Below are positions 1 to 57,474 of a stretch of DNA of 64,000 bases, piece after piece. Every line of letters begins with the position of its first letter. The first letter of the stretch is position 1. The translations under genes were made by a program, and so were the position numbers. Location: contig JALVVK010000001.1 of NCBI GenBank assembly GCA_027023445.1, forward strand, positions 10,964 to 74,963, in the 5' to 3' direction. The DNA is from Deltaproteobacteria bacterium (GTDB lineage Bacteria; Desulfobacterota; Dissulfuribacteria; Dissulfuribacterales; JALVPX01). The notes beneath the pieces were generated by a model. The model made no database searches and was not told the origin of the DNA. It saw nothing but the letters and a program-made list of their open reading frames with translations.

Positions 1-681
1 GTTACTTACTACACCGGGCATGGACGGTATGGCTCCGGCACTGATTTCGACCGCAACTTTGAAAGCTTCGCGCTCCTGGATCGACACGGAAAGTTGGAGC
101 GCATATTTAAAGATTACAGCCTGTTGCATAAGTTTCTACGAAAAGAGGGGCGCAGGTACGGGCGCAGCGCGTGGAGGCAGTTTCTGTGGAGGGAGAAGCG
201 GGGGCGTATCAGGGTACGTTTGAGCAACGAGGGAAATATTTTTATAAATCCGAAAAATTATCATCCCCATGAATTCGGAGCAAGGCTGATTTACTGGGCA
301 TTAAAGAAGGGGAGCGCCCGTCTGGCCACCGGATCATCCGGTTCCATCGGCCAGGAGATGAAAAAACCAGGCGCGCAACGCTATCGAGTGGTTGTTTTTG
401 CCGGATGCCGCACCAGAGATTACCATGGCAGGCTGCGGGGGACACCCGGGCTTGGAAGGAGAAACGCGCAACTGTTTGAAACCACCAGAACCATAAAAAC
501 CCTTGACGCGGCGCAGATTTTTGGCGCCTTTTTGGATTCACTGCTGGGGCAGTTTTCGGCGAATGCGATTGTAAGGGCCATGGACATCAATCAGGATGTG
601 CAGAGGCGCGTTCATGGTGGCAGGGGTCTGCGGGGAACATTCCGCAGCCGGGGAACCAGGTATGATCCTGTAGTACGCTGA
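1..681 (+). CDS. hypothetical protein, C-terminal part (ORF enters from the left window edge)
   Basis: Frame 1 is open from nt 1 to the TGA at 679-681; the track shows it only from the internal Met at 94. Translation begins VTYYTGHGRYGSGTDFDRNF. It has a TGHG ... FAGCR His/Cys pair, but I cannot name a family. Confidence 0.4.
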   Translation, partial: VTYYTGHGRYGSGTDFDRNFESFALLDRHGKLERIFKDYSLLHKFLRKEGRRYGRSAWRQFLWREKRGRIRVRLSNEGNIFINPKNYHPHEFGARLIYWALKKGSARLATGSSGSIGQEMKKPGAQRYRVVVFAGCRTRDYHGRLRGTPGLGRRNAQLFETTRTIKTLDAAQIFGAFLDSLLGQFSANAIVRAMDINQDVQRRVHGGRGLRGTFRSRGTRYDPVVR

Positions 682-693
682 TGGAGCCAGGCC

Positions 694-1230
694 ATGGATT
701 TTGAGCGCGCGGTTACATTACTGGAATCTCCTGACACATGGGACAGGGGGGCGAAGGCCTTAGCCAGAATCGGGAACCAGAGAGCCCTGCTTCATCTTGT
801 CAAGGCATATGAAATGCCGGAGGAAGCTGACAGGTTATGCCTCCTGGAAGCAATGGAACGGCTTGATCCGGTGGACGGTTCGCACCGGCTTTACGCCTCC
901 ACTGATCCGGAAGTCAGGCTTCGGGGGCTGCATCTCATGGAATTGTTTCCTGACAAGGCCCATCTGCCATTGCTGGCAGAGGCGATTAAGTCCTCAAATC
1001 CGGCGATCAGGCGCCAGGCGGCAAGTTCGGCCTTGTGCCAGCCCCCGTGCGCGCAATGGGAGAGGTTATTATTATCCATGCTGGCAGATGATGATGAACA
1101 CCTGCGTTTGCTTGCGATTGAGGGGTTACAGTACATGGACACACCGTCTGTACATCGGGCGTTGCTGGAGCGGCTTGATTGCGAATCTGATGATATCGTT
1201 AAACAAAGGCTGAAAGAGTCTTTGCGGTAA
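694..1230 (+). CDS. HEAT-repeat (PBS-lyase HEAT-like) protein
   Basis: 178 aa of repeated ~30-aa helical units (ARIGNQRALLHLVKAY, DPEVRLRGLHLM, NPAIRRQAASSAL, DEHLRLLAIEGL), typical of HEAT_2/PBS-lyase repeats. Confidence 0.6.
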   Translation: MDFERAVTLLESPDTWDRGAKALARIGNQRALLHLVKAYEMPEEADRLCLLEAMERLDPVDGSHRLYASTDPEVRLRGLHLMELFPDKAHLPLLAEAIKSSNPAIRRQAASSALCQPPCAQWERLLLSMLADDDEHLRLLAIEGLQYMDTPSVHRALLERLDCESDDIVKQRLKESLR

Positions 1231-1266
1231 GGGTAATGGCTTTAAACCCGGTTTATGCAGCATGTT

Positions 1267-1364
1267 ACCCGGCTACGGCCCGGTGATCTTCGTGAGGCGC
1301 CTGGTACGGACCCGCATGCAGGGTGGTGTGGGGAGGGGGAGAGAAAAACCCCCCCTTACCCGAT
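1267..1364 (+). mobile_element. 5'-truncated group II intron remnant (domain V/VI tail only)
   Basis: About 98 nt align to the 3' ends of the intron copies at 2642-2739 and 4044-4141 (tacccggctacggcccggtgatcttcgtga...ccttacccgat). The domain V region carries extra substitutions. Confidence 0.7.
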
Positions 1365-1390
1365 TGTGCTTTTCCTTAAATTCAAAGACG

Positions 1391-1720
1391 TTAAGGGGCA
1401 AACAGCTCTTGAAGTAATGCAAGTACCCTCGATTGTGCTTTTGGGTTTATAACCCCTAATTTCTTGACAAGTCTTTTCTTATCAATAGTACGAATTTGAT
1501 CTAAAATTATCTGTCCTTTCTTTCCTTGAAAAGAACACGAAATTCGGGTTGGATATCGCTTACCCTTTGTTGTCATTGGTGCCACAATGACTGTAGAAAT
1601 ATGGTGGTTCATTTCATTAGGAGAAATAATAAGGCAAGGCCTTGTTTTTGGTATCTCATGTCCAATACTTGGGTCGAGGTACACTAGAAACACATCAAAA
1701 CGGTTTACCTCCATTCCCAT
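1391..1720 (-). CDS. mazF: type II toxin, MazF/PemK family endoribonuclease
   Basis: 109 aa; the text FDVFLVYLDPSIGHEIPKTRPCLIISPNEMN...VIVAPMTTK...ILDQIRTIDKKRL is a typical PemK/MazF fold sequence. It overlaps the upstream antitoxin gene by 16 nt. Confidence 0.85.
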   Translation of the reverse strand: MGMEVNRFDVFLVYLDPSIGHEIPKTRPCLIISPNEMNHHISTVIVAPMTTKGKRYPTRISCSFQGKKGQIILDQIRTIDKKRLVKKLGVINPKAQSRVLALLQELFAP

Positions 1721-1953
1721 TCTTCCTCATCCCATTGACTTGAAGGAAATTCCAACAATTGATCATCACCATTTTGGGCCATTTTTTCAAACGCTTTTGC
1801 CCAACTTTTACGGACTGAAGTATAAGGTTTAATTACAAGCTTTTTGTCATGCACTTCCAGCTCCACCTCACTATCAAAACCACACTGTTTAAGAATTGGC
1901 TTAGGTATTCTCAAGCCCTGAGAGTTGCCAATTTGAATTATCGATGCTTTCAT
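1705..1953 (-). CDS. mazE: AbrB/MazE/SpoVT-family antitoxin
   Basis: 82 aa; the N-terminal IIQIGNSQGLRIPKPILKQCGF looped-hinge-helix motif and an acidic C-terminus sit upstream of and overlapping mazF. Confidence 0.8.
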   Translation of the reverse strand: MKASIIQIGNSQGLRIPKPILKQCGFDSEVELEVHDKKLVIKPYTSVRKSWAKAFEKMAQNGDDQLLEFPSSQWDEEEWEWR

Positions 1954-1989
1954 AACCTAAATAACCTCCAAGGTATCCTAAATAATTAC

Positions 1990-2018
1990 ATTGTAATTAC
2001 ATCGACATCGTTTGTCAA
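1990..2018 (-). promoter_or_regulatory. sigma70-type promoter of the mazEF cassette with a palindromic operator
   Basis: The minus strand reads TTGACA (2018-2013), a 17-nt spacer, then TACAAT (1995-1990). The -10 is embedded in two copies of the palindrome GTAATTAC (atGTAATTACaatGTAATTAtt). Confidence 0.5.
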
Positions 2019-2035
2019 TCTGGATTTTTTTAGGA

Positions 2036-2103
2036 GCACAACAACCAAGCTCATCAGCGGGAATGAAGCGCAAAGGAATTGCTGTCCGTGTGCATGGCAT
2101 TGT
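2036..2103 (-). other. integron attC site of the 155-aa cassette, interrupted by an intron (remaining 5 nt at 2740-2744)
   Basis: The plus strand has GCACAAC (2036-2042; minus-strand GTTGTGC core) and an imperfect inverted repeat, ending ...cattGT | intron | TAAGC. Rejoined, this gives GTTAAGC (minus-strand GCTTAAC, i.e. RYYYAAC containing the cassette stop codon). Confidence 0.6.
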
Positions 2104-2739
2104 GTACGCCCAGCATGGGCATAGACTTATGAGGTTAAAGTCCTCTATACGTGGATCCCGCTACCTGATTGCGAGGATAGCGAAAGTATTAGCCGAAGGC
2201 AAGGGCGTCGCCGCAAGGCGGGGCCTGAAGGAAGCCGGAGTGCAAAACTGTGAGCCGACGAACAGAAACGTCATATAAGGCCGAGTCTCCGGGTAAGGCA
2301 GCACAACATGTCAAGGCCCTGGATTCAGGAGATTTTGCTTTTAACCTTGAGCTGTTTTCCCGGTAATCTCATTATATGACAGGGAAAATACAGGATGTCT
2401 CCTTTCACGTCCCCTTTCATACATGGAATCCTTGATGATCAAGACTCCGCATTTTCTAACCATTTGTCAAGAATAAAGATTCGACCCTCTTTCCACAGGC
2501 GGACAGCGATACTTACGGCTCTCAGCCGCAAGGGGTACTGGCATCTTGCCCGCACCCTTGCCACTCAAACTGGAATGACCAATAAATGGCTTGCCAGGCA
2601 GGGACTGGTTTCCATAAGGGAAAGGTGGGTCAGGATTCACTACCCGGCTACGGCCCGGTGATCTTCGTGAACCGCCCTGTGCGGACCCGCATGCAGGGTG
2701 GTGTGGGGAGGGGGAGAGAAAAACTCCCCCTTACCCGAT
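2104..2739 (+). mobile_element. group II intron derivative, RT-deleted, 636 nt (copy b)
   Basis: It starts GTACGCCC and ends CCCGAT. Domain V-like hairpin: ccgccctg-tgcg-gacc-cgca-(tg bulge)-cagggtgg. Domain VI-like hairpin has a bulged A (ggggaggggga...ctcccccttAcccgat). About 97 percent identical to copy c apart from a 162-nt deletion. Confidence 0.75.
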
Positions 2740-3206
2740 TAAGCTTTTGTTGCCTTCAAATCCTTATTTGCAATGGTGACCAATCTGTCCAAAGCATCTT
2801 TATGATATTTATACTCTTGATCATAAATTTCCCCCGGAGGCTCCTCATTCCAATTTAGCTTCGGGCGATTTTTTAATTCCCTGAGAACATCAGCAGCATC
2901 TTTCGAAATGACGAATCCACCAATATCTGTGACCTTCTTCAACTTCCAATAAGCTTGGCTATATTTCTCTTGAAATTCTTTTTCCCTTTCTTCTGGCAAC
3001 TTATGGCCTAACTCATAATGGTCTCTTTGAAATTCACAATATTGCATGATGTCGTATAGAGAGGAGATAATGTCAGAGTATGCTCGTTCTTTCCTTTCCC
3101 ACCATTTCTCCGAATATATCTTTTTTAGTGACCATCTTGCAGCAAAATATGAGGCGATAATTGCCGACACTATGCCAGGTAAAAATTTAATAAGAATATC
3201 TTTCAT
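2739..3206 (-). CDS. hypothetical membrane-anchored protein (integron cassette ORF)
   Basis: 155 aa; N-terminal hydrophobic helix (FLPGIVSAIIASYFAARW) followed by a charged helical region. No family recognised. Bounded by attC core sites. Confidence 0.6.
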   Translation of the reverse strand: MKDILIKFLPGIVSAIIASYFAARWSLKKIYSEKWWERKERAYSDIISSLYDIMQYCEFQRDHYELGHKLPEEREKEFQEKYSQAYWKLKKVTDIGGFVISKDAADVLRELKNRPKLNWNEEPPGEIYDQEYKYHKDALDRLVTIANKDLKATKA

Positions 3207-3216
3207 AATAATTTAA

Positions 3217-3343
3217 GCATAACGTCACGGATCAGGGGCGGCAAACAATGCGGAGCAATGAGTCTGGGAATATCGCCAGGCTTCTTGCGGGGCACAGCCT
3301 TGAAAAAAACGCCGCGATGTTTGCCGTCACCTGCAGCCGCTGG
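3217..3343 (-). other. integron attC site of the DUF4145 cassette, interrupted by an intron (remaining 5 nt at 4142-4146)
   Basis: GCATAAC at 3217-3223 (minus-strand GTTATGC). Internal inverted repeat ggcggcaaacaatgcgg / ccgcgatgtttgccgtc. The right end reads ...ccgctgG | intron | TAGAT, matching the cassette's own 5' TTAGAT. The junction is one base off the GT|T seen at the other sites. Confidence 0.55.
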
Positions 3344-4141
3344 GTACGCCCAGCATGGGCATAGACTTATGAGGTTAAAGTCCTCTATACGTGGATCCCG
3401 CTACCTGATTTCGAGGATAGCGAAAGTATTAGCCGAAGGCAAGGGCGTCGCCGTAAGGCGGGGTCTGAAGGAAGCCGGAGTGCAAAACTGTGAGCCGACG
3501 AACAGAAACGTCATATAAGGCCGAGTCTCTGGGTAAGGCAGCACATCATGTCAACGCCCTGGATTCAGGAGATTTTGCTTTTAACCTTGAGTTGTTTTCC
3601 CGGTAAACTCATTATATGACAGGGAAAATACAGGATGTCTCCTTTCACGTCCCCTTTCATACATGGAATTCTTGATGATCAAGACTCCGCATTTTCTAAC
3701 TATTTGTCAAGAATAAAGATTCGACCCTCTTTCCACAGGTATGTCCGTGGCTGGATGAACTACTACGGCATATCTGAATACTACAGGCCCATACCCGCGC
3801 TGGACGAATGGCTCAGGAGGCGGACAAGGATGTGTTACTGGAAACAGTGGCGCAAGACCCGCACCAAGGTCAGGAACCTGATAAGACTCGGGACATACAG
3901 GCGGACAGCGATACTTACGGCTCTCAGCCGCAAGGGGTACTGGCATCTTGCCCGCACCCTTGCCACTCAAACAGGAATGACCAATAAATGGCTTGCCAGG
4001 CAGGGACTGGTTTCCATAAGGGAAAGGTGGATCAGGATTCACTACCCGGCTACGGCCCGGTAATCTTCGTGAACCGCCCTGTGCGGACCCGCATGCAGGG
4101 TGGTGTGGGGGCTGGGGGAGAAAAACCCCCGGCTACCCGAT
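3344..4141 (+). mobile_element. group II intron derivative, RT-deleted, 798 nt (copy c)
   Basis: Same 5' end (GTACGCCCAGCATGGGC) and the same domain V/VI tail as copy b. It retains a maturase (domain X) ORF fragment. It lies antisense to the flanking cassette ORFs. Confidence 0.75.
3635..4063 (+). pseudogene. remnant of a group II intron-encoded protein (maturase/X domain only; RT domain deleted)
   Basis: 142 aa containing YVRGWMNYYGISEYYRP...WKQWRKTRTKVRNLIRLG...GYWHLARTLATQTGMTNKWLARQGLVSI, typical of the X/maturase region and C-terminus of intron RTs. No RT motifs (no YADD-type block) are present. Confidence 0.7.
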
Positions 4142-4147
4142 TAGATT

Positions 4148-4840
4148 CTACGACTTCATGTGCGCTTCATAGGTACCTGTCAAATGTTCCATCATGATCC
4201 AGTGCAGGGTGAGCTCGATGAGGTTCTTTAAGTCCTGCACATCCTTGTCCTTCCATCTCCTATAATAATGGGCCTCGTCGTTTCCAAGCCAAGCTGCTCG
4301 CTGTGCGCATGCTTTTATTCGTGGATCGGAGATATCATCCCTGATACAGTTTCCTAGGAATTTCGATTGATAGTGCTCTTGTTTGCTGGGGTCTCGGTTT
4401 ATTAGGTAATCCTTAACCAGAAATTCCAAAGCCTTTCTGTAGCCTATACCACATATATCTTTTAGGCCGGATTGTTCGGCTTGATATGATTGATTCCACA
4501 GAGAACAGAAAGACGGCGAAAGAGTTTCAATGTATTCGTCAAATGACTTTTTGACTTGCCCTTTGGGAAGAACCCTGACAAAAAAGTAATCATATGTAGG
4601 ATGACCAGGGACCCTTTGATATTGAGCAATGAAGAGGTGTTGACAGTCGTCGGCTGGACATTGAAAAACCGCCTCCAGGTACTCCTCAATGGGTTCAATG
4701 ACACCATCGCAGAAAACGAATGTGACCACGTGCTGACTCTCAGCATGTATCTCGCGACCGCAATAGGGACAATGGTTTGGCAATCGATCGAGGGAGTAGT
4801 GCTGTTCTGAATCCTCAATCCACGTACTTACGTAAGGCAT
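4148..4840 (-). CDS. zinc-ribbon / DUF4145-like protein (integron cassette ORF)
   Basis: 230 aa; N-terminal CPYC...CPADDC Cys pairs. The C-terminal GYRKALEFLVKDYL...CAQRAAWLGNDEAHY...DVQDLKNLIELTLHWI resembles the DUF4145 helical domain. Confidence 0.55.
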   Translation of the reverse strand: MPYVSTWIEDSEQHYSLDRLPNHCPYCGREIHAESQHVVTFVFCDGVIEPIEEYLEAVFQCPADDCQHLFIAQYQRVPGHPTYDYFFVRVLPKGQVKKSFDEYIETLSPSFCSLWNQSYQAEQSGLKDICGIGYRKALEFLVKDYLINRDPSKQEHYQSKFLGNCIRDDISDPRIKACAQRAAWLGNDEAHYYRRWKDKDVQDLKNLIELTLHWIMMEHLTGTYEAHMKS

Positions 4841-4857
4841 TGTTCCCTTTCCTCAAA

Positions 4858-4930
4858 ATCTAACGTTTGAGTTGTGGGGATTTCACGGAGCGCAGCGTAG
4901 TGAAATTCCCACACGAACGATTTGTTAGTG
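4858..4930 (-). other. intact integron attC site (73 bp)
   Basis: The plus strand reads ATCTAAC-gtttgagttgtggggatttcac...gtgaaattcccacacgaacgattt-GTTAGTG. On the minus strand this is R'' (g)CACTAAC ... R' GTTAGAT, with an imperfect inverted repeat between them. It starts 2 nt after the upstream cassette stop. Confidence 0.7.
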
Positions 4931-4932
4931 CT

Positions 4933-5319
4933 TTATGGCTCATATGCTTCAGTAACGATAACGGGTAGCATTGTATAACCCACTGCTAGTGATGCATAAA
5001 ACCGATGATAACCATTTTTTACCTTGTATTTGTAGGTATCAGATTCATGTAGCTGTACTTCTACTGGCGGAAGCTCGCATTCAGGCGATGTAAATGCCAT
5101 AAGAATGGGTACAAGCTTATATTTTTTGAAAGGTGGAATGCCTGAATTTCTTAGAGGTGGCTCAACTACAGATATGCTTACTACCTCAGCATTACTTTCT
5201 GAGTGCTTATATGGGTAATACTTGTACTCACCAATATTAAATTCATCCATATCTGCACAGCTCCACCAATCATTTGGTAGTTCAAATTCTTTATTCATCC
5301 CAGGAATATTAAATTTCAT
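4933..5319 (-). CDS. ParB N-terminal (nuclease-like) domain protein (integron cassette ORF)
   Basis: 128 aa; ...VSISVVEPPL...PPVEVQLHESDTYKYKVKNGYHRFYASLAVGYTMLPVIV matches the ParB/Srx DGxHR-type core. The cassette 5' end GTTAGTGC (rc of 5321-5328) is the exact complement of its 3' R'' box. Confidence 0.55.
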   Translation of the reverse strand: MKFNIPGMNKEFELPNDWWSCADMDEFNIGEYKYYPYKHSESNAEVVSISVVEPPLRNSGIPPFKKYKLVPILMAFTSPECELPPVEVQLHESDTYKYKVKNGYHRFYASLAVGYTMLPVIVTEAYEP

Positions 5320-5408
5320 AGCACTAACAGTGGAATAGGCTGCATGCAGCCTATTCCAATATCCCTGACTTCAGCCTAACCTGTTTTATATCTTGCTTTT
5401 AATTTAAC

Positions 5409-56266: not shown

Positions 56267-56325
56267 ATGTCTAAGTCAGGCAATAAAAGCGTTAGATTTT
56301 GAATCTAACCCCTTTTAATCTGGAG

Positions 56326-57339
56326 TCAAATCTTTATTCTTGATGATTGAATCAGCCGACAGCGTAAATTATTAAATTTTTTTTTCAGCTCAGGTTCATG
56401 TCCCAGCCTGATTCGCAACCTTTTCCTGGCCTGGCTGACTGAACTGTAATCTATTCCCCCAACCAGCCGCCCAATTTCAGCTTGGGTAAGCTGACAGAGG
56501 CGGTATAGCAATTCCATCAGCATCGCTCTTTCCACGAGATTTTTGCCGCGTCTACATATTTCCTCTCTGCCTATCCCGGTCAAATGGGTGAAATGATCGA
56601 TCAGATCTTCCGGGTCAGGCGTTTTCTCCAATTTTCTCAAGGCAGGCTGCTCCCTTTTGGAGGCCTTCTCGCCTAAGAATTTCTCTCTGATCCCCTGCAC
56701 AAAGTCAGCACTGCCTACAATCCCGGAGCCCTTACCCAAGCCCAATGGATTCTCTATCTTCTGCTCAATGCCCTGTAGTATAAACTTGCGATAGCCCAGC
56801 CTTCCCTTTCGGGTATCCCCGCCCATATATTCCAGGACAGTCGTATAATTTACAAAGTCTGTTCTTTTGCCAGCATGGAGATACCCTGGTAAACTGCTGT
56901 TTTTATATTTTAAGAGCATATCCAGTTTTTCCTTAACGGTGTTGTCGGGCGATCCCTTGATTCGGATCGGGTTGAGGTGGATATAACGGGACACCTCCAG
57001 AAGATAATTATCAGAATCAATCAGAAAGGCTTTGTATCTTCCCTGATAAAGGTGCCCGACACGGTTGTGTCTGTGATTGAAGGCAGATGTGTAGGAGATG
57101 TTGAAGTGGCGCATGAACTCAGAAAGATTGCCTTCAGGAGTGGTTACCAGCAGATGAAAGTGGTTTGGCATGCAGACATGCGCCAAAAGGGAGACGTTAT
57201 AGATATCCAGGGAAAGAGAAAGCCTGTCCGTAAAAATTTTGTAGTCTTTTTTGTCCAGGAAGATATTTTTACGCCCGTTTCCACGGCAGGTAACGTGATA
57301 GCAGGCACCAGGATACTGGATTCTCAAGGGTCTGGCCAT
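56326..57339 (-). mobile_element. IS200-like / REP-associated Y1 (HUH) transposase with a C-terminal DnaA-C-like HTH domain
   Basis: ARPLRIQYPGACYHVTCRGNGRKNIF...NHFHLLV (HUH)...GHLYQGRYKAFL (catalytic Tyr region), and C-terminal ERAMLMELLYRLCQLTQAEIGRLVGGIDYSSVSQARKRL. I saw no clear terminal inverted repeats. Confidence 0.7.
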
Positions 57340-57474
57340 GCCTAATAATCGACAAGAGTCGATCATTTGTCAAGAAAAAAGATTTGACCCCCAAGAGCAG
57401 GATTCTTGACATAAGTAAGAGTTGGTGCGTACATTGCGGTACATTGTCCATAATTCATGCAAAAGGGGACTTTC

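What the first reader, a model, noticed from the sequence alone, without database searches (positions are those of the whole stretch)
2104..4141. Shared RT deletion plus a 162-nt microhomology deletion: ORF-less intron relics at two different attC sites
Copies b and c are about 97 percent identical (about 10 substitutions in the first 390 nt) and share the same junction where the RT domain should be (...IRPSFHR|YVRGWMNYYG). Copy b additionally lacks exactly 162 nt (54 codons; 3740-3901 of copy c), flanked by the 5-nt direct repeat ACAGG. Because both share the primary RT deletion yet sit in different attC sites with intact 5' and 3' termini, independent decay of two full-length insertions is unlikely. 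The alternatives are these: the deleted form was mobilised in trans by a helper IEP; it was copied by gene conversion between intron copies; or it moved together with cassette DNA. The 5' ribozyme part before the ORF remnant is only about 290 nt. That looks short for domains I-III, so catalytic competence is doubtful. Three direct repeats of 100-800 nt also create substrates for recombination that would delete whole cassettes.
Basis: inference. Interest (0 to 1): 0.6.

Follow-up and report, generated by a model that had tools for sequence, protein, structure and literature searches.

The report
Dead group II intron relics in attC sites
Two neighbouring gene-cassette recombination sites each hold the same badly damaged copy of a self-splicing mobile intron; it most likely spread between the sites by ordinary recombination rather than by jumping, which makes this a well-documented case of decay, not a new kind of element.

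Summary
Copies b (2104-2739) and c (3344-4141) are group IIC-attC introns, antisense to the cassettes, each bounded exactly by intron ends in a different attC site. A 99-nt 3' stump (a, 1266-1364) sits in a third site.

The damage is larger than "RT deleted". Measured against a full-length 2013-nt relative (L083), both copies keep only intron nt 1-230 and the 3' end. About 1,380 nt are replaced by a 166-nt AT-rich filler found in none of the related loci compared. The lost stretch holds the 3' strands of domain I, domain II, J2/3, domain III, domain IVa and RT0-7. Copy b also lost 162 nt between ACAGG repeats.

The ribozyme core is therefore gone, and mobilisation of this form in trans is very unlikely. 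Flanks differ right up to the intron ends, so co-duplication with cassette DNA is excluded. Domain VI differs between b and c by four fully compensated base pairs, while the rest differs by 1-2.5%. The copies are therefore mosaics, and recombination or gene conversion between intron copies is the best explanation.

This is ordinary decay of a known element, with a modestly interesting recombination signature. Repeat-induced assembly errors remain a caveat.

The parts
2104..2739 (+). Copy b: a 636-nt internally deleted group IIC-attC intron relic in the attC of the 155-aa cassette. The target is GGCATTGT|intron|TAAGC (TTGT/T).
2104..2333 (+). Copy b 5' arm: intron nt 1-230. This is the 5' two-thirds of domain I and includes the EBS1-like loop ACAA.
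   Evidence: 92% identical to full-length L083 nt 1-230 and 99% to L092.
2334..2499 (+). Copy b filler: 166 nt, 38% GC, without significant similarity to intron sequence.
   Evidence: No significant match in the 82 related loci or in the full-length L083 intron. It carries an IR-like motif at 2467-2485 on the - strand.
2500..2739 (+). Copy b 3' arm: the last 53 codons of the X/maturase domain, plus D5 and D6 of type 1 (GGGGAGGGGGAG...).
3344..4141 (+). Copy c: a 798-nt relic in the attC of the 230-aa cassette. The target is GCCGCTGG|intron|TAGAT, and one T of the TGGT/T target is missing.
3344..3573 (+). Copy c 5' arm: intron nt 1-230. It has a unique A-to-T change at 3546 in the EBS1-like loop.
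3574..3739 (+). Copy c filler: 166 nt. It supplies the ATG (3635) and the first 35 codons of the 142-aa ORF.
3740..4141 (+). Copy c 3' arm: X-domain codons from YVRGW (107 aa), plus D5 and D6 of type 2 (GGGGGCTGGGGG...). It is 99.3% identical to a 5'-truncated third-site copy (L001).
3740..3901 (+). The 162 nt present in c and absent in b. It is bounded by ACAGG direct repeats at 3735-3739 and 3897-3901.
1266..1364 (+). Copy a: a 99-nt 3' stump at the chromosomal edge of the array. D5 no longer folds. D6 is of the b type.
2030..2103 (+). Bottom-strand remainder of the attC interrupted by copy b. The candidate R' box GCACAAC lies at about 2036-2042.
   Evidence: Read directly from the sequence and folded. 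The family-wide 5' exon pattern is.
3212..3343 (+). Bottom-strand remainder of the long attC interrupted by copy c (GCATAAC ... stem ... GCTGG).
   Evidence: A related attC occurs in L001 and L085.
4855..4932 (+). An unoccupied attC (TCTAACG...TTTGT/TAGTG) that shows the empty TTGT/T target.

Best explanation
Copies b and c are non-functional relics of a group IIC-attC intron. That lineage inserts antisense into the R'' box of attC sites at TTGT/T.

Inferred sequence of events:
1. Full-length introns of two closely related sub-lineages, which differ in domain VI, retrohomed into consecutive attC sites of this integrase-less cassette array.
2. In one copy, about 1.38 kb (intron nt 231-1610) was replaced by a 166-nt foreign filler. 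The filler may be a remnant of a small element related to the inverted repeats that flank a Y1-transposase-like gene elsewhere in the window. This event removed the 3' strands of domain I, domain II, J2/3, domain III, domain IVa and RT0-7, and so killed both the ribozyme and the IEP.
3. The dead allele was copied into a neighbouring intron copy by homologous recombination or gene conversion. The recombination used the 230-nt 5' arm and the roughly 240-400-nt 3' arm, and it left a different domain VI at the 3' end.
4. Copy b then lost a further 162 nt by slippage between ACAGG repeats. Copy c lost the last exon T and mutated its EBS1 loop.

Shown: the anatomy, the breakpoints, the loss of the core, the unrelated flanks and the compensated D6 mosaic.
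Inferred: the order of events, the conversion mechanism and the origin of the filler.
For: Breakpoints. A full-length 2013-nt relative (L083) and eight others align to b and c only at nt 1-230 and from YVRGW onward.

Loss of the core. Intact relatives score 111-140 bits on RF02001 and also hit RF01998, the D3 region. Copies b and c score 65-68 bits with the 3' half of the RF02001 model unpaired, and have no RF01998 hit even at E<=1. The covarying partner of the D1 basal stem (CCCAG/CTGGG in L083) lies in the deleted part.

Flanks. They are unrelated up to the intron termini.

Mosaic D6. D5-D6 of b and c fold identically, yet D6 differs at 8 positions that form 4 fully compensated pairs. The remaining roughly 610 shared nt differ at 6-13 positions. 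b's D6 type is shared with fragment a, and c's type with L001, L003 and L083. Compensated pairs are not expected to arise neutrally in a dead ribozyme, so they predate the lesion.

Further signs of recombination. Fragment a's D5 has the 5' strand of the L092 type (CCTGG) and the 3' strand of the b/c type (CAGGG). A sister MAG contig (L092) joins the b-site flank to a different derivative and to a different downstream cassette.

Other derivatives. Internally deleted copies with other breakpoints are common in this clade: L047, L060, L080, L026 and P0014.

Known biology. TTGT/T insertion in R'', antisense orientation, occurrence in CALINs, and the frequency of fragmented copies are all documented (PMC7923331, PMC3001079).
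Against: 1. The three reproducible b/c differences in the 5' arm (nt 187, 203, 212) lie within 43 nt of the left breakpoint. A conversion tract from c into b would then have to end within about 18 nt of the heterology, unless these differences are later point mutations. Two of the three are derived in c, which allows that reading.
2. All sequences come from short-read metagenome assemblies. The 230-nt 5' arm and the roughly 200-nt 3' arm are near-identical repeats, and two assemblies phase 7 SNPs differently. Some flank-to-core links could therefore be wrong.
3. No donor or recipient intermediate was found, such as a full-length copy at either site.
4. The origin of the filler rests on 26-29-nt and 12-nt matches only.
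Confidence: 0.6

Rival explanations
1. The deleted form is a non-autonomous mini-intron that a helper IEP from a full-length copy mobilised in trans, by reverse splicing, into both attC sites.
For: Both copies end exactly at intron termini, in typical attC targets, with unrelated flanks. D5 and D6 are intact, with a bulged A. In bacteria, ORF-less introns usually sit in genomes with related IEPs that may act in trans (PMC4424553). A ribozyme-complete ORF-less derivative exists in a sister MAG (L092).
Against: Reverse splicing is catalysed by the intron RNA itself, and b and c lack the 3' strands of D1, J2/3 and D3. RF01998 is absent and the RF02001 score is halved. The filler shows no significant similarity to the missing parts. 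No intact IEP closer than about 84% nt identity was found. The D6 mosaic still requires recombination. c's exon junction is imprecise.
Confidence: 0.05
2. The lesions are independent in the two copies. A small target-specific element inserted at the same intron position (after nt 230) in each copy. This would be an element related to the inverted repeats of the Y1-transposase-like gene, of the REP/PATE type. Adjacent deletions then ran rightward from the element's end to different distances, reaching nt 1610 in c and about nt 1772 in b.
For: b and c share the left junction and the filler, but their right junctions differ, and both start at the same filler end. The filler contains GGGTCGAATCTTTATTCTTGACAAAT and ATTCTTGATGAT, which match the 29-nt inverted repeats flanking the Y1_Tnp gene at 56387-57339. 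The core motif occurs 4 times in the window against 0.02 expected. IS200/IS605-type elements insert at specific short sequences (general knowledge).
Against: The ACAGG microhomology at both ends of the 162-nt gap would be a coincidence of about 1 in 1000 under this model, whereas slippage predicts it. The motif is not found elsewhere in the 64-kb window or in the first 86 fetched loci, so there is no sign of an active multi-copy element. A scan of viral contigs gave about chance-level hits.
Confidence: 0.12
3. It is an assembly artefact. Only one site truly carries the filler core, and the assembler threaded the near-identical 5' and 3' arms of several intron copies onto the wrong flanks.
For: ENA and window assemblies assign 7 of 13 SNPs differently between b and c. 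ENA scaffolds break at intron c. Many related contigs end inside these introns. L092 joins the b flank to a different core.
Against: b and c have distinct unique junctions (filler|CGGACAG in b, filler|TATGTCC in c) and distinct D6 types. The 3' end of c, from the second half of D6 into the 230-aa cassette, is confirmed in contigs from other runs (L089, L090). The link from the b-site flank to the filler is reproduced in four other assemblies (L087, L094, L095, L096). Identical stretches between b and c are at most 71 nt in the window version.
Confidence: 0.1

Closest known systems
Group IIC-attC introns (S.ma.I2, E.c.I7, Kl.pn.I-type) of integron cassette arrays
   Same: GTACG...GAT termini. 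D5 with the class C CGC triad, and D6 with a bulged A. Insertion in the bottom strand of attC at R'', at TTGT/T, antisense to the cassettes. Occurrence in arrays without an integrase. The nearest full-length relative's IEP is 56.8% identical to the ltrA of the intron lying between blaIMP-4 and qacEdelta1 in a Klebsiella class 1 integron (PMC3001079, PMC7923331).
   Different: b and c lack the 3' part of D1, D2, J2/3, D3, D4a and the RT. They carry a 166-nt foreign filler. No outward promoter (Pout) was predicted in them.
Bacterial ORF-less group II introns that splice with an IEP supplied in trans
   Same: No functional IEP, and related IEP-coding introns exist in relatives. A true example may be the roughly 806-nt derivative in L092, which has nt 1-658 plus D5-D6 and matches both RF02001 and RF01998.
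   Different: ORF-less introns keep a complete ribozyme. b and c do not.
Fragmented or truncated group II introns in CALINs (UHB.F1, H.ha.F1 and H.ha.F2 in PMC7923331)
   Same: Decayed intron copies antisense in cassette arrays, next to toxin-antitoxin cassettes, with no intI nearby.
   Different: Those are 5'-truncated single copies, as fragment a and L001 are here. b and c keep both termini and share one internal lesion at two sites.
The Léon and Roy model of homologous recombination between IIC-attC intron copies in cassette formation (as cited in PMC7923331)
   Same: The mosaic D6, the chimeric D5 of fragment a and the L092 arrangement are the kind of inter-copy recombination the model requires.
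   Different: No newly formed cassette is demonstrated here. The evidence is indirect and comes from metagenome assemblies.

Membership tests
Group II intron, bacterial class C, attC lineage | Domain V-VI with catalytic triad and bulged branch A; 5' GUNYG and 3' AY termini | tested here: met
   RF00029 scores 46.9 and 47.2 bits (gathering score 40) at 2670-2739 and 4072-4141. Both fold identically with a bulged A. The termini are GTACG...GAT.
Group II intron, bacterial class C, attC lineage | Complete domain I (closed basal stems, EBS1 loop) | tested here: not met
   Only nt 1-230 are present. RF02001 scores 65-68 bits, against 111-140 in intact relatives, with the 3' half of the model unpaired. 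The CTGG partner of the basal stem is deleted.
Group II intron, bacterial class C, attC lineage | Domains II-III and J2/3 | tested here: not met
   RF01998 matches L004, L007, L055, L069, L083 and L092, but not the window, even at E<=1.
Group II intron, bacterial class C, attC lineage | Intron-encoded RT/maturase in domain IV | tested here: not met
   c retains 107 aa of the X domain (GIIM, 45 bits) and b retains 53 aa with no Pfam hit. Full-length relatives encode IEPs of roughly 440 aa (446 aa in L083).
Group II intron, bacterial class C, attC lineage | Insertion in the attC bottom strand at R'' (TTGT/T), antisense to the cassettes | tested here: met
   b sits at GGCATTGT|...|TAAGC. c sits at GCTGG|...|TAGAT, where L085 has GCTGGT|. 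Most of the roughly 55 relatives' 5' exons end in TTGT, with TGGT the commonest variant, after a stem-loop. The cassette ORFs are on the opposite strand.
ORF-less but splicing-competent group II intron | All six ribozyme domains present apart from the ORF | tested here: not met
   As above: the 3' part of D1, D2 and D3 are absent.
Integron cassette array / CALIN | Series of promoterless short ORFs, each followed by an attC with R''/R' boxes and an imperfect palindrome | tested here: inconclusive
   Five same-strand small ORFs or operons lie between 1391 and 5319. Folded imperfect palindromes with CTAAC/GTTAG-type boxes lie at 4855-4932, 3212-3343 and 2030-2103. No dedicated attC model was available.
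Integron cassette array / CALIN | Integron integrase adjacent to the array (present = integron, absent = CALIN) | tested here: not met
   The genes next to the array are CGGC, pyrE-like and purB-like on one side and HEAT on the other. None of ten ORFs of 256-441 aa scanned is a tyrosine recombinase. Not every ORF in the window was scanned.
REP/PATE-like non-autonomous element of a Y1 transposase (for the filler) | Multi-copy, bounded by the transposase's end hairpins, found in non-intron contexts | tested here: inconclusive
   There are two motif matches to the inverted repeats of the Y1_Tnp gene. There is no further copy in the window or in the first 86 fetched loci.

The most novel reading that the evidence does not exclude
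The array records homologous recombination between group IIC-attC intron copies in nature. A dead deletion allele was homogenised across neighbouring attC sites. Domain V and VI segments were exchanged between copies. In a sister genome (L092), an intron-to-intron crossover joined the mazEF attC to a different cassette. This would be direct natural evidence for the proposed role of these introns as portable homology that rearranges or builds cassettes. A second possible layer is a Y1-transposase-related mini-element that targets and inactivates the intron.
Probability: 0.25. Interest if true: 0.5.

Novelty: new member of a known kind. Interest (0 to 1): 0.3.

Why it matters
Group IIC-attC introns have been proposed to help build and reshuffle integron cassettes by providing homology between attC sites. 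Natural examples of recombination between copies are scarce.

This locus offers a small, testable case. Two dead copies share one lesion yet carry different, structurally compensated domain VI sequences. A sister genome may show a crossover product.

In itself the finding is decay of a known mobile element. It does not reveal a new mechanism or a functional mini-intron. It also shows that an apparently ORF-less intron with intact ends can hide loss of the catalytic core.

Tried and rejected
1. The filler as a diverged remnant of RT4 (SPLLANILLDD) or of RT7 (FxRGKIRWSxKAFxEFKRRIRL). The DNA local score against L083 is 14, while shuffles average 13.6. The protein similarity is weak, and the flanking arms are 84-92% identical. 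I rejected this as chance.

2. The recurrent hit lengths of 117, 183 and about 225 aa as a conserved maturase-only family. They merely start at conserved Met or Leu codons after truncation or at contig ends.

3. The filler as an outward promoter (Pout). It contains TTGACA on the - strand, but no sigma-70-like site passed the scan.

4. The MFE fold of the whole of copy c was uninformative.

5. Looking for the filler elsewhere:
   - BLAST against the 82 related loci and against the full-length L083 intron found nothing significant.
   - The window outside b and c shares only the inverted-repeat motif.
   - A motif search of the first 86 fetched loci found nothing.
   - A motif scan of viral contigs gave chance-level hits.

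6. Cassette polymorphism next to the 230-aa cassette. The 105-aa and 128-aa calls turned out to be the same ORF with different start calls.

7. L092 as a clean orthologous-site copy. I downgraded it to 'recombinant or chimera', because b's diagnostic bases are simply the family consensus, L092 differs from b at nt 158 and 184, and its far flank is absent from the window.

8. The paper PMC2714756 is not held.
Full report
**What is there**

Positions 1230-5400 of the window hold a short array of small genes on the minus strand:
- mazF (1391-1720) and mazE (1705-1953);
- a 155-aa ORF (2739-3206);
- a 230-aa ORF (4148-4840);
- a 128-aa ORF (4933-5319).

Each is followed by an imperfect palindrome with CTAAC/GTTAG-type boxes. 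No integrase lies next to the array or among the ORFs I scanned, so it looks like a CALIN.

Three plus-strand repeats interrupt consecutive attC-like sites: copy a (1266-1364), copy b (2104-2739) and copy c (3344-4141). Rfam identifies b and c as group II introns. RF02001 matches 2207-2364 and 3447-3604, and RF00029 matches 2670-2739 and 4072-4141. Copy a reaches only 24 bits on RF00029.

Copy b sits at GGCATTGT|...|TAAGC. That is the TTGT/T (IBS1/IBS3) target inside R'' used by group IIC-attC introns, which insert antisense to the cassettes (PMC7923331, PMC3001079). In the roughly 55 relatives I collected, most 5' exons end in TTGT, with TGGT the commonest variant, after a stem-loop.

**Check of the observation**

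The alignment of b and c gives 10 substitutions in the first 396 nt and a single 162-nt gap in b, flanked by ACAGG at 3735-3739 and 3897-3901. It also gives 3 substitutions between 3902 and 4110 and 8 clustered in domain VI. Homology stops exactly at the intron ends.

The c ORF (142 aa) matches only the maturase domain GIIM, and the b ORF (88 aa) matches nothing. The architecture recurs in other assemblies of related samples and MAGs.

Only 6 of the 13 non-D6 differences are reproduced in the ENA assembly. Part of the divergence is therefore polymorphism or mis-phasing.

**The real extent of the lesion**

A protein search returned only short or truncated relatives. Their recurrent lengths simply reflect conserved Met or Leu codons downstream of truncations.

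Scans of genome and metagenome contigs produced many full-length relatives of 1.9-2.05 kb, mostly in Desulfobacterota MAGs. The closest is L083 (2013 nt, IEP 446 aa). It is 92% identical to b and c over nt 1-230 and 84% identical over the last 403 nt.

Every full-length relative aligns to b and c only at nt 1-230 and from the codon of Y in AEYVRGW onward. The 166 nt between (3574-3739 in c, 2334-2499 in b; 38% GC) has no significant similarity to any related locus or to L083.

The lesion is therefore loss of about 1,380 nt (L083 nt 231-1610) with gain of foreign filler.

The lost part contains:
- the 3' strands of domain I, including the covarying partner of the basal stem (CCCAG/CTGGG in L083, CCCGG/CCGGG in others);
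- domain II, J2/3 and domain III;
- domain IVa and RT0-7.

The Rfam scores agree. Intact relatives score 111-140 bits on RF02001 and also match RF01998. Copies b and c score 65-68 bits on RF02001 and have no RF01998 match even at E<=1.

The copy in L001 comes from the same metagenome. It is 99.3% identical to c in the 3' arm and retains ...RSRYVPMDCRLKKLAE before YVRGW, which confirms the right breakpoint.

**Further decay**

- Copy c lacks the last T of its target: GCTGG|GTACG, against GCTGGT|GTACG in the related site L085.
- Copy c has a unique A-to-T change in the loop ACAA, which I read as EBS1 because it is complementary to TTGT (the assignment is an inference by analogy with the Oceanobacillus iheyensis intron).
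- Copy a is a 99-nt stump whose D5 no longer folds.

**How the same dead allele came to be at two sites**

Movement with cassette DNA is excluded, because the flanks are unrelated right up to the termini.

Retromobility of the deleted form requires the RNA to catalyse reverse splicing. Without J2/3, D3 and a closed domain I, that is very unlikely.

The informative feature is domain VI. D5-D6 of b and c fold into the same structure with a bulged A. D6 nevertheless differs at eight positions that form four fully compensated pairs, while the other roughly 610 shared nt differ at 6-13 positions. b's D6 type is shared with fragment a. c's type is shared with L001, L003 and L083.

Compensated pairs are the mark of selection on a working ribozyme, so the two D6 variants predate the lesion. 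Two elements with the same dead core but different D6 must therefore be recombinants.

Fragment a's D5 also looks chimeric, with an L092-type 5' strand and a b/c-type 3' strand.

My best model is that related full-length introns occupied the sites and one suffered the lesion. Homologous recombination or gene conversion through the 5' and 3' arms then spread the lesion. Afterwards b lost 162 nt by slippage.

One weakness remains. The three reproducible differences in the 5' arm (nt 187, 203, 212) lie close to the heterology. This is awkward for a simple c-to-b conversion tract, unless they are later mutations; two of the three are derived in c.

**The filler**

On its minus strand the filler carries GGGTCGAATCTTTATTCTTGACAAAT, and on its plus strand ATTCTTGATGAT. 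Both resemble the 29-nt inverted repeats that flank a Y1_Tnp gene with a weak DnaA_C HTH match at 56387-57339. The core motif occurs four times in the window against 0.02 expected.

This suggests, but does not show, that the filler is a remnant of a small element related to that gene's ends.

A rival model has target-specific insertion in both copies followed by adjacent deletions. It would explain why both right junctions start at the same filler end. It would, however, make the ACAGG microhomology a coincidence, so I rank it lower.

**Context in relatives**

Internal-deletion derivatives with other breakpoints are frequent in this clade:
- L047, 888 nt;
- L060, 912 nt;
- L080, 1439 nt;
- L026, 489 nt, whose right breakpoint falls within a nucleotide or two of the window's;
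- P0014.

A sister MAG contig (L092) joins the mazEF-side flank to a roughly 806-nt derivative. This derivative keeps nt 1-658 and D5-D6, matches both RF02001 and RF01998, and is followed by a different cassette. It is either a natural crossover product or an assembly chimera through the 230-nt arm.

The IEP of L083 is 56.8% identical to the ltrA of the intron lying antisense between blaIMP-4 and qacEdelta1 in a Klebsiella class 1 integron. This ties the lineage to the classical IIC-attC introns.

**Verdict**

The breakpoint was misplaced and the damage underestimated.

These are decayed members of a known family. [quoted passage not shown]

The recombination signature between copies is the only moderately interesting aspect, and it needs long-read confirmation.

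Noticed in passing
window 56322-57391: A Y1_Tnp (IS200-like) gene with a weak DnaA_C HTH match lies at 56387-57339 on the - strand. It is flanked by 29-nt inverted repeats (56322-56350 and 57363-57391, 83% complementary). Their core motif recurs only inside the filler of intron copies b and c.
   Followed up: partly
window 1990-2018 (- strand): A near-consensus sigma-70-like site, TTGACA-17-TACAAT (11 of 12), lies just upstream of mazE. It sits inside the cassette and downstream of the attC, so this toxin-antitoxin cassette probably has its own promoter.
   Followed up: no
window 1352-1372 and 1424-1442: The sequence TACCC(TC)GATTGTGCTTTT is duplicated 70 nt apart. It consists of the last nucleotides of intron stump a plus its 3' exon. 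The second copy lies inside the 3' end of the mazF ORF, which hints at a small rearrangement at the array edge.
   Followed up: no
window 4855-4932: An intact attC with a perfect TTGT/T target is unoccupied, although the next three attC sites all carry intron remains.
   Followed up: no
L092 2903-3708 (- strand; GCA_054029895.1, JBPNSX010000001.1): A roughly 806-nt ORF-less derivative keeps intron nt 1-658 (D1-D3, D4a and 13 IEP codons) plus D5-D6. It scores 111 bits on RF02001 and 51 bits on RF01998. It may be a genuine ribozyme-complete ORF-less IIC-attC intron. It is joined to the same mazEF-side flank as copy b but to a different downstream cassette, so it is either a recombinant or an assembly chimera.
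   Followed up: partly
L026 3916-4402; L047 3523-4410; L060 3504-4415; L080 2968-4406; protein P0014: These are independent internal-deletion derivatives of the same intron clade in other genomes. L026's right breakpoint (and, within 4 codons, P0014's) falls at almost the same place as the window's, at AE|YVRGW. This may mark a deletion hotspot.
   Followed up: partly
L077 1-2001: A head-to-tail intron junction (…ACCCGAT|GTACGCCCAGC) with a unit length of 1860 nt. The contig is either a tandem intron pair or a circularly permuted assembly of an intron circle.
   Followed up: no
L002 10001-13301 (GCA_054005795.1): A damaged intron fragment, with X domain and D5 but D6 replaced, lies next to two Cas2 genes and an RT-Cas1 fusion.
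   Followed up: no
protein P0001 (245 aa, JGI contig of 1090 nt): The top-scoring homologue contains two tandem X/maturase domains separated by an RT7-like segment. It is another rearranged intron ORF.
   Followed up: no
window 2171, 2224, 2571, 2629, 3454, 3670, 3886, 3973, 4062: These are the nine positions where the window differs from ENA scaffold_146 over 1-4143. Eight of them are b/c-variable sites, which points to strain polymorphism or SNP mis-phasing between the repeat copies in short-read assemblies.
   Followed up: yes
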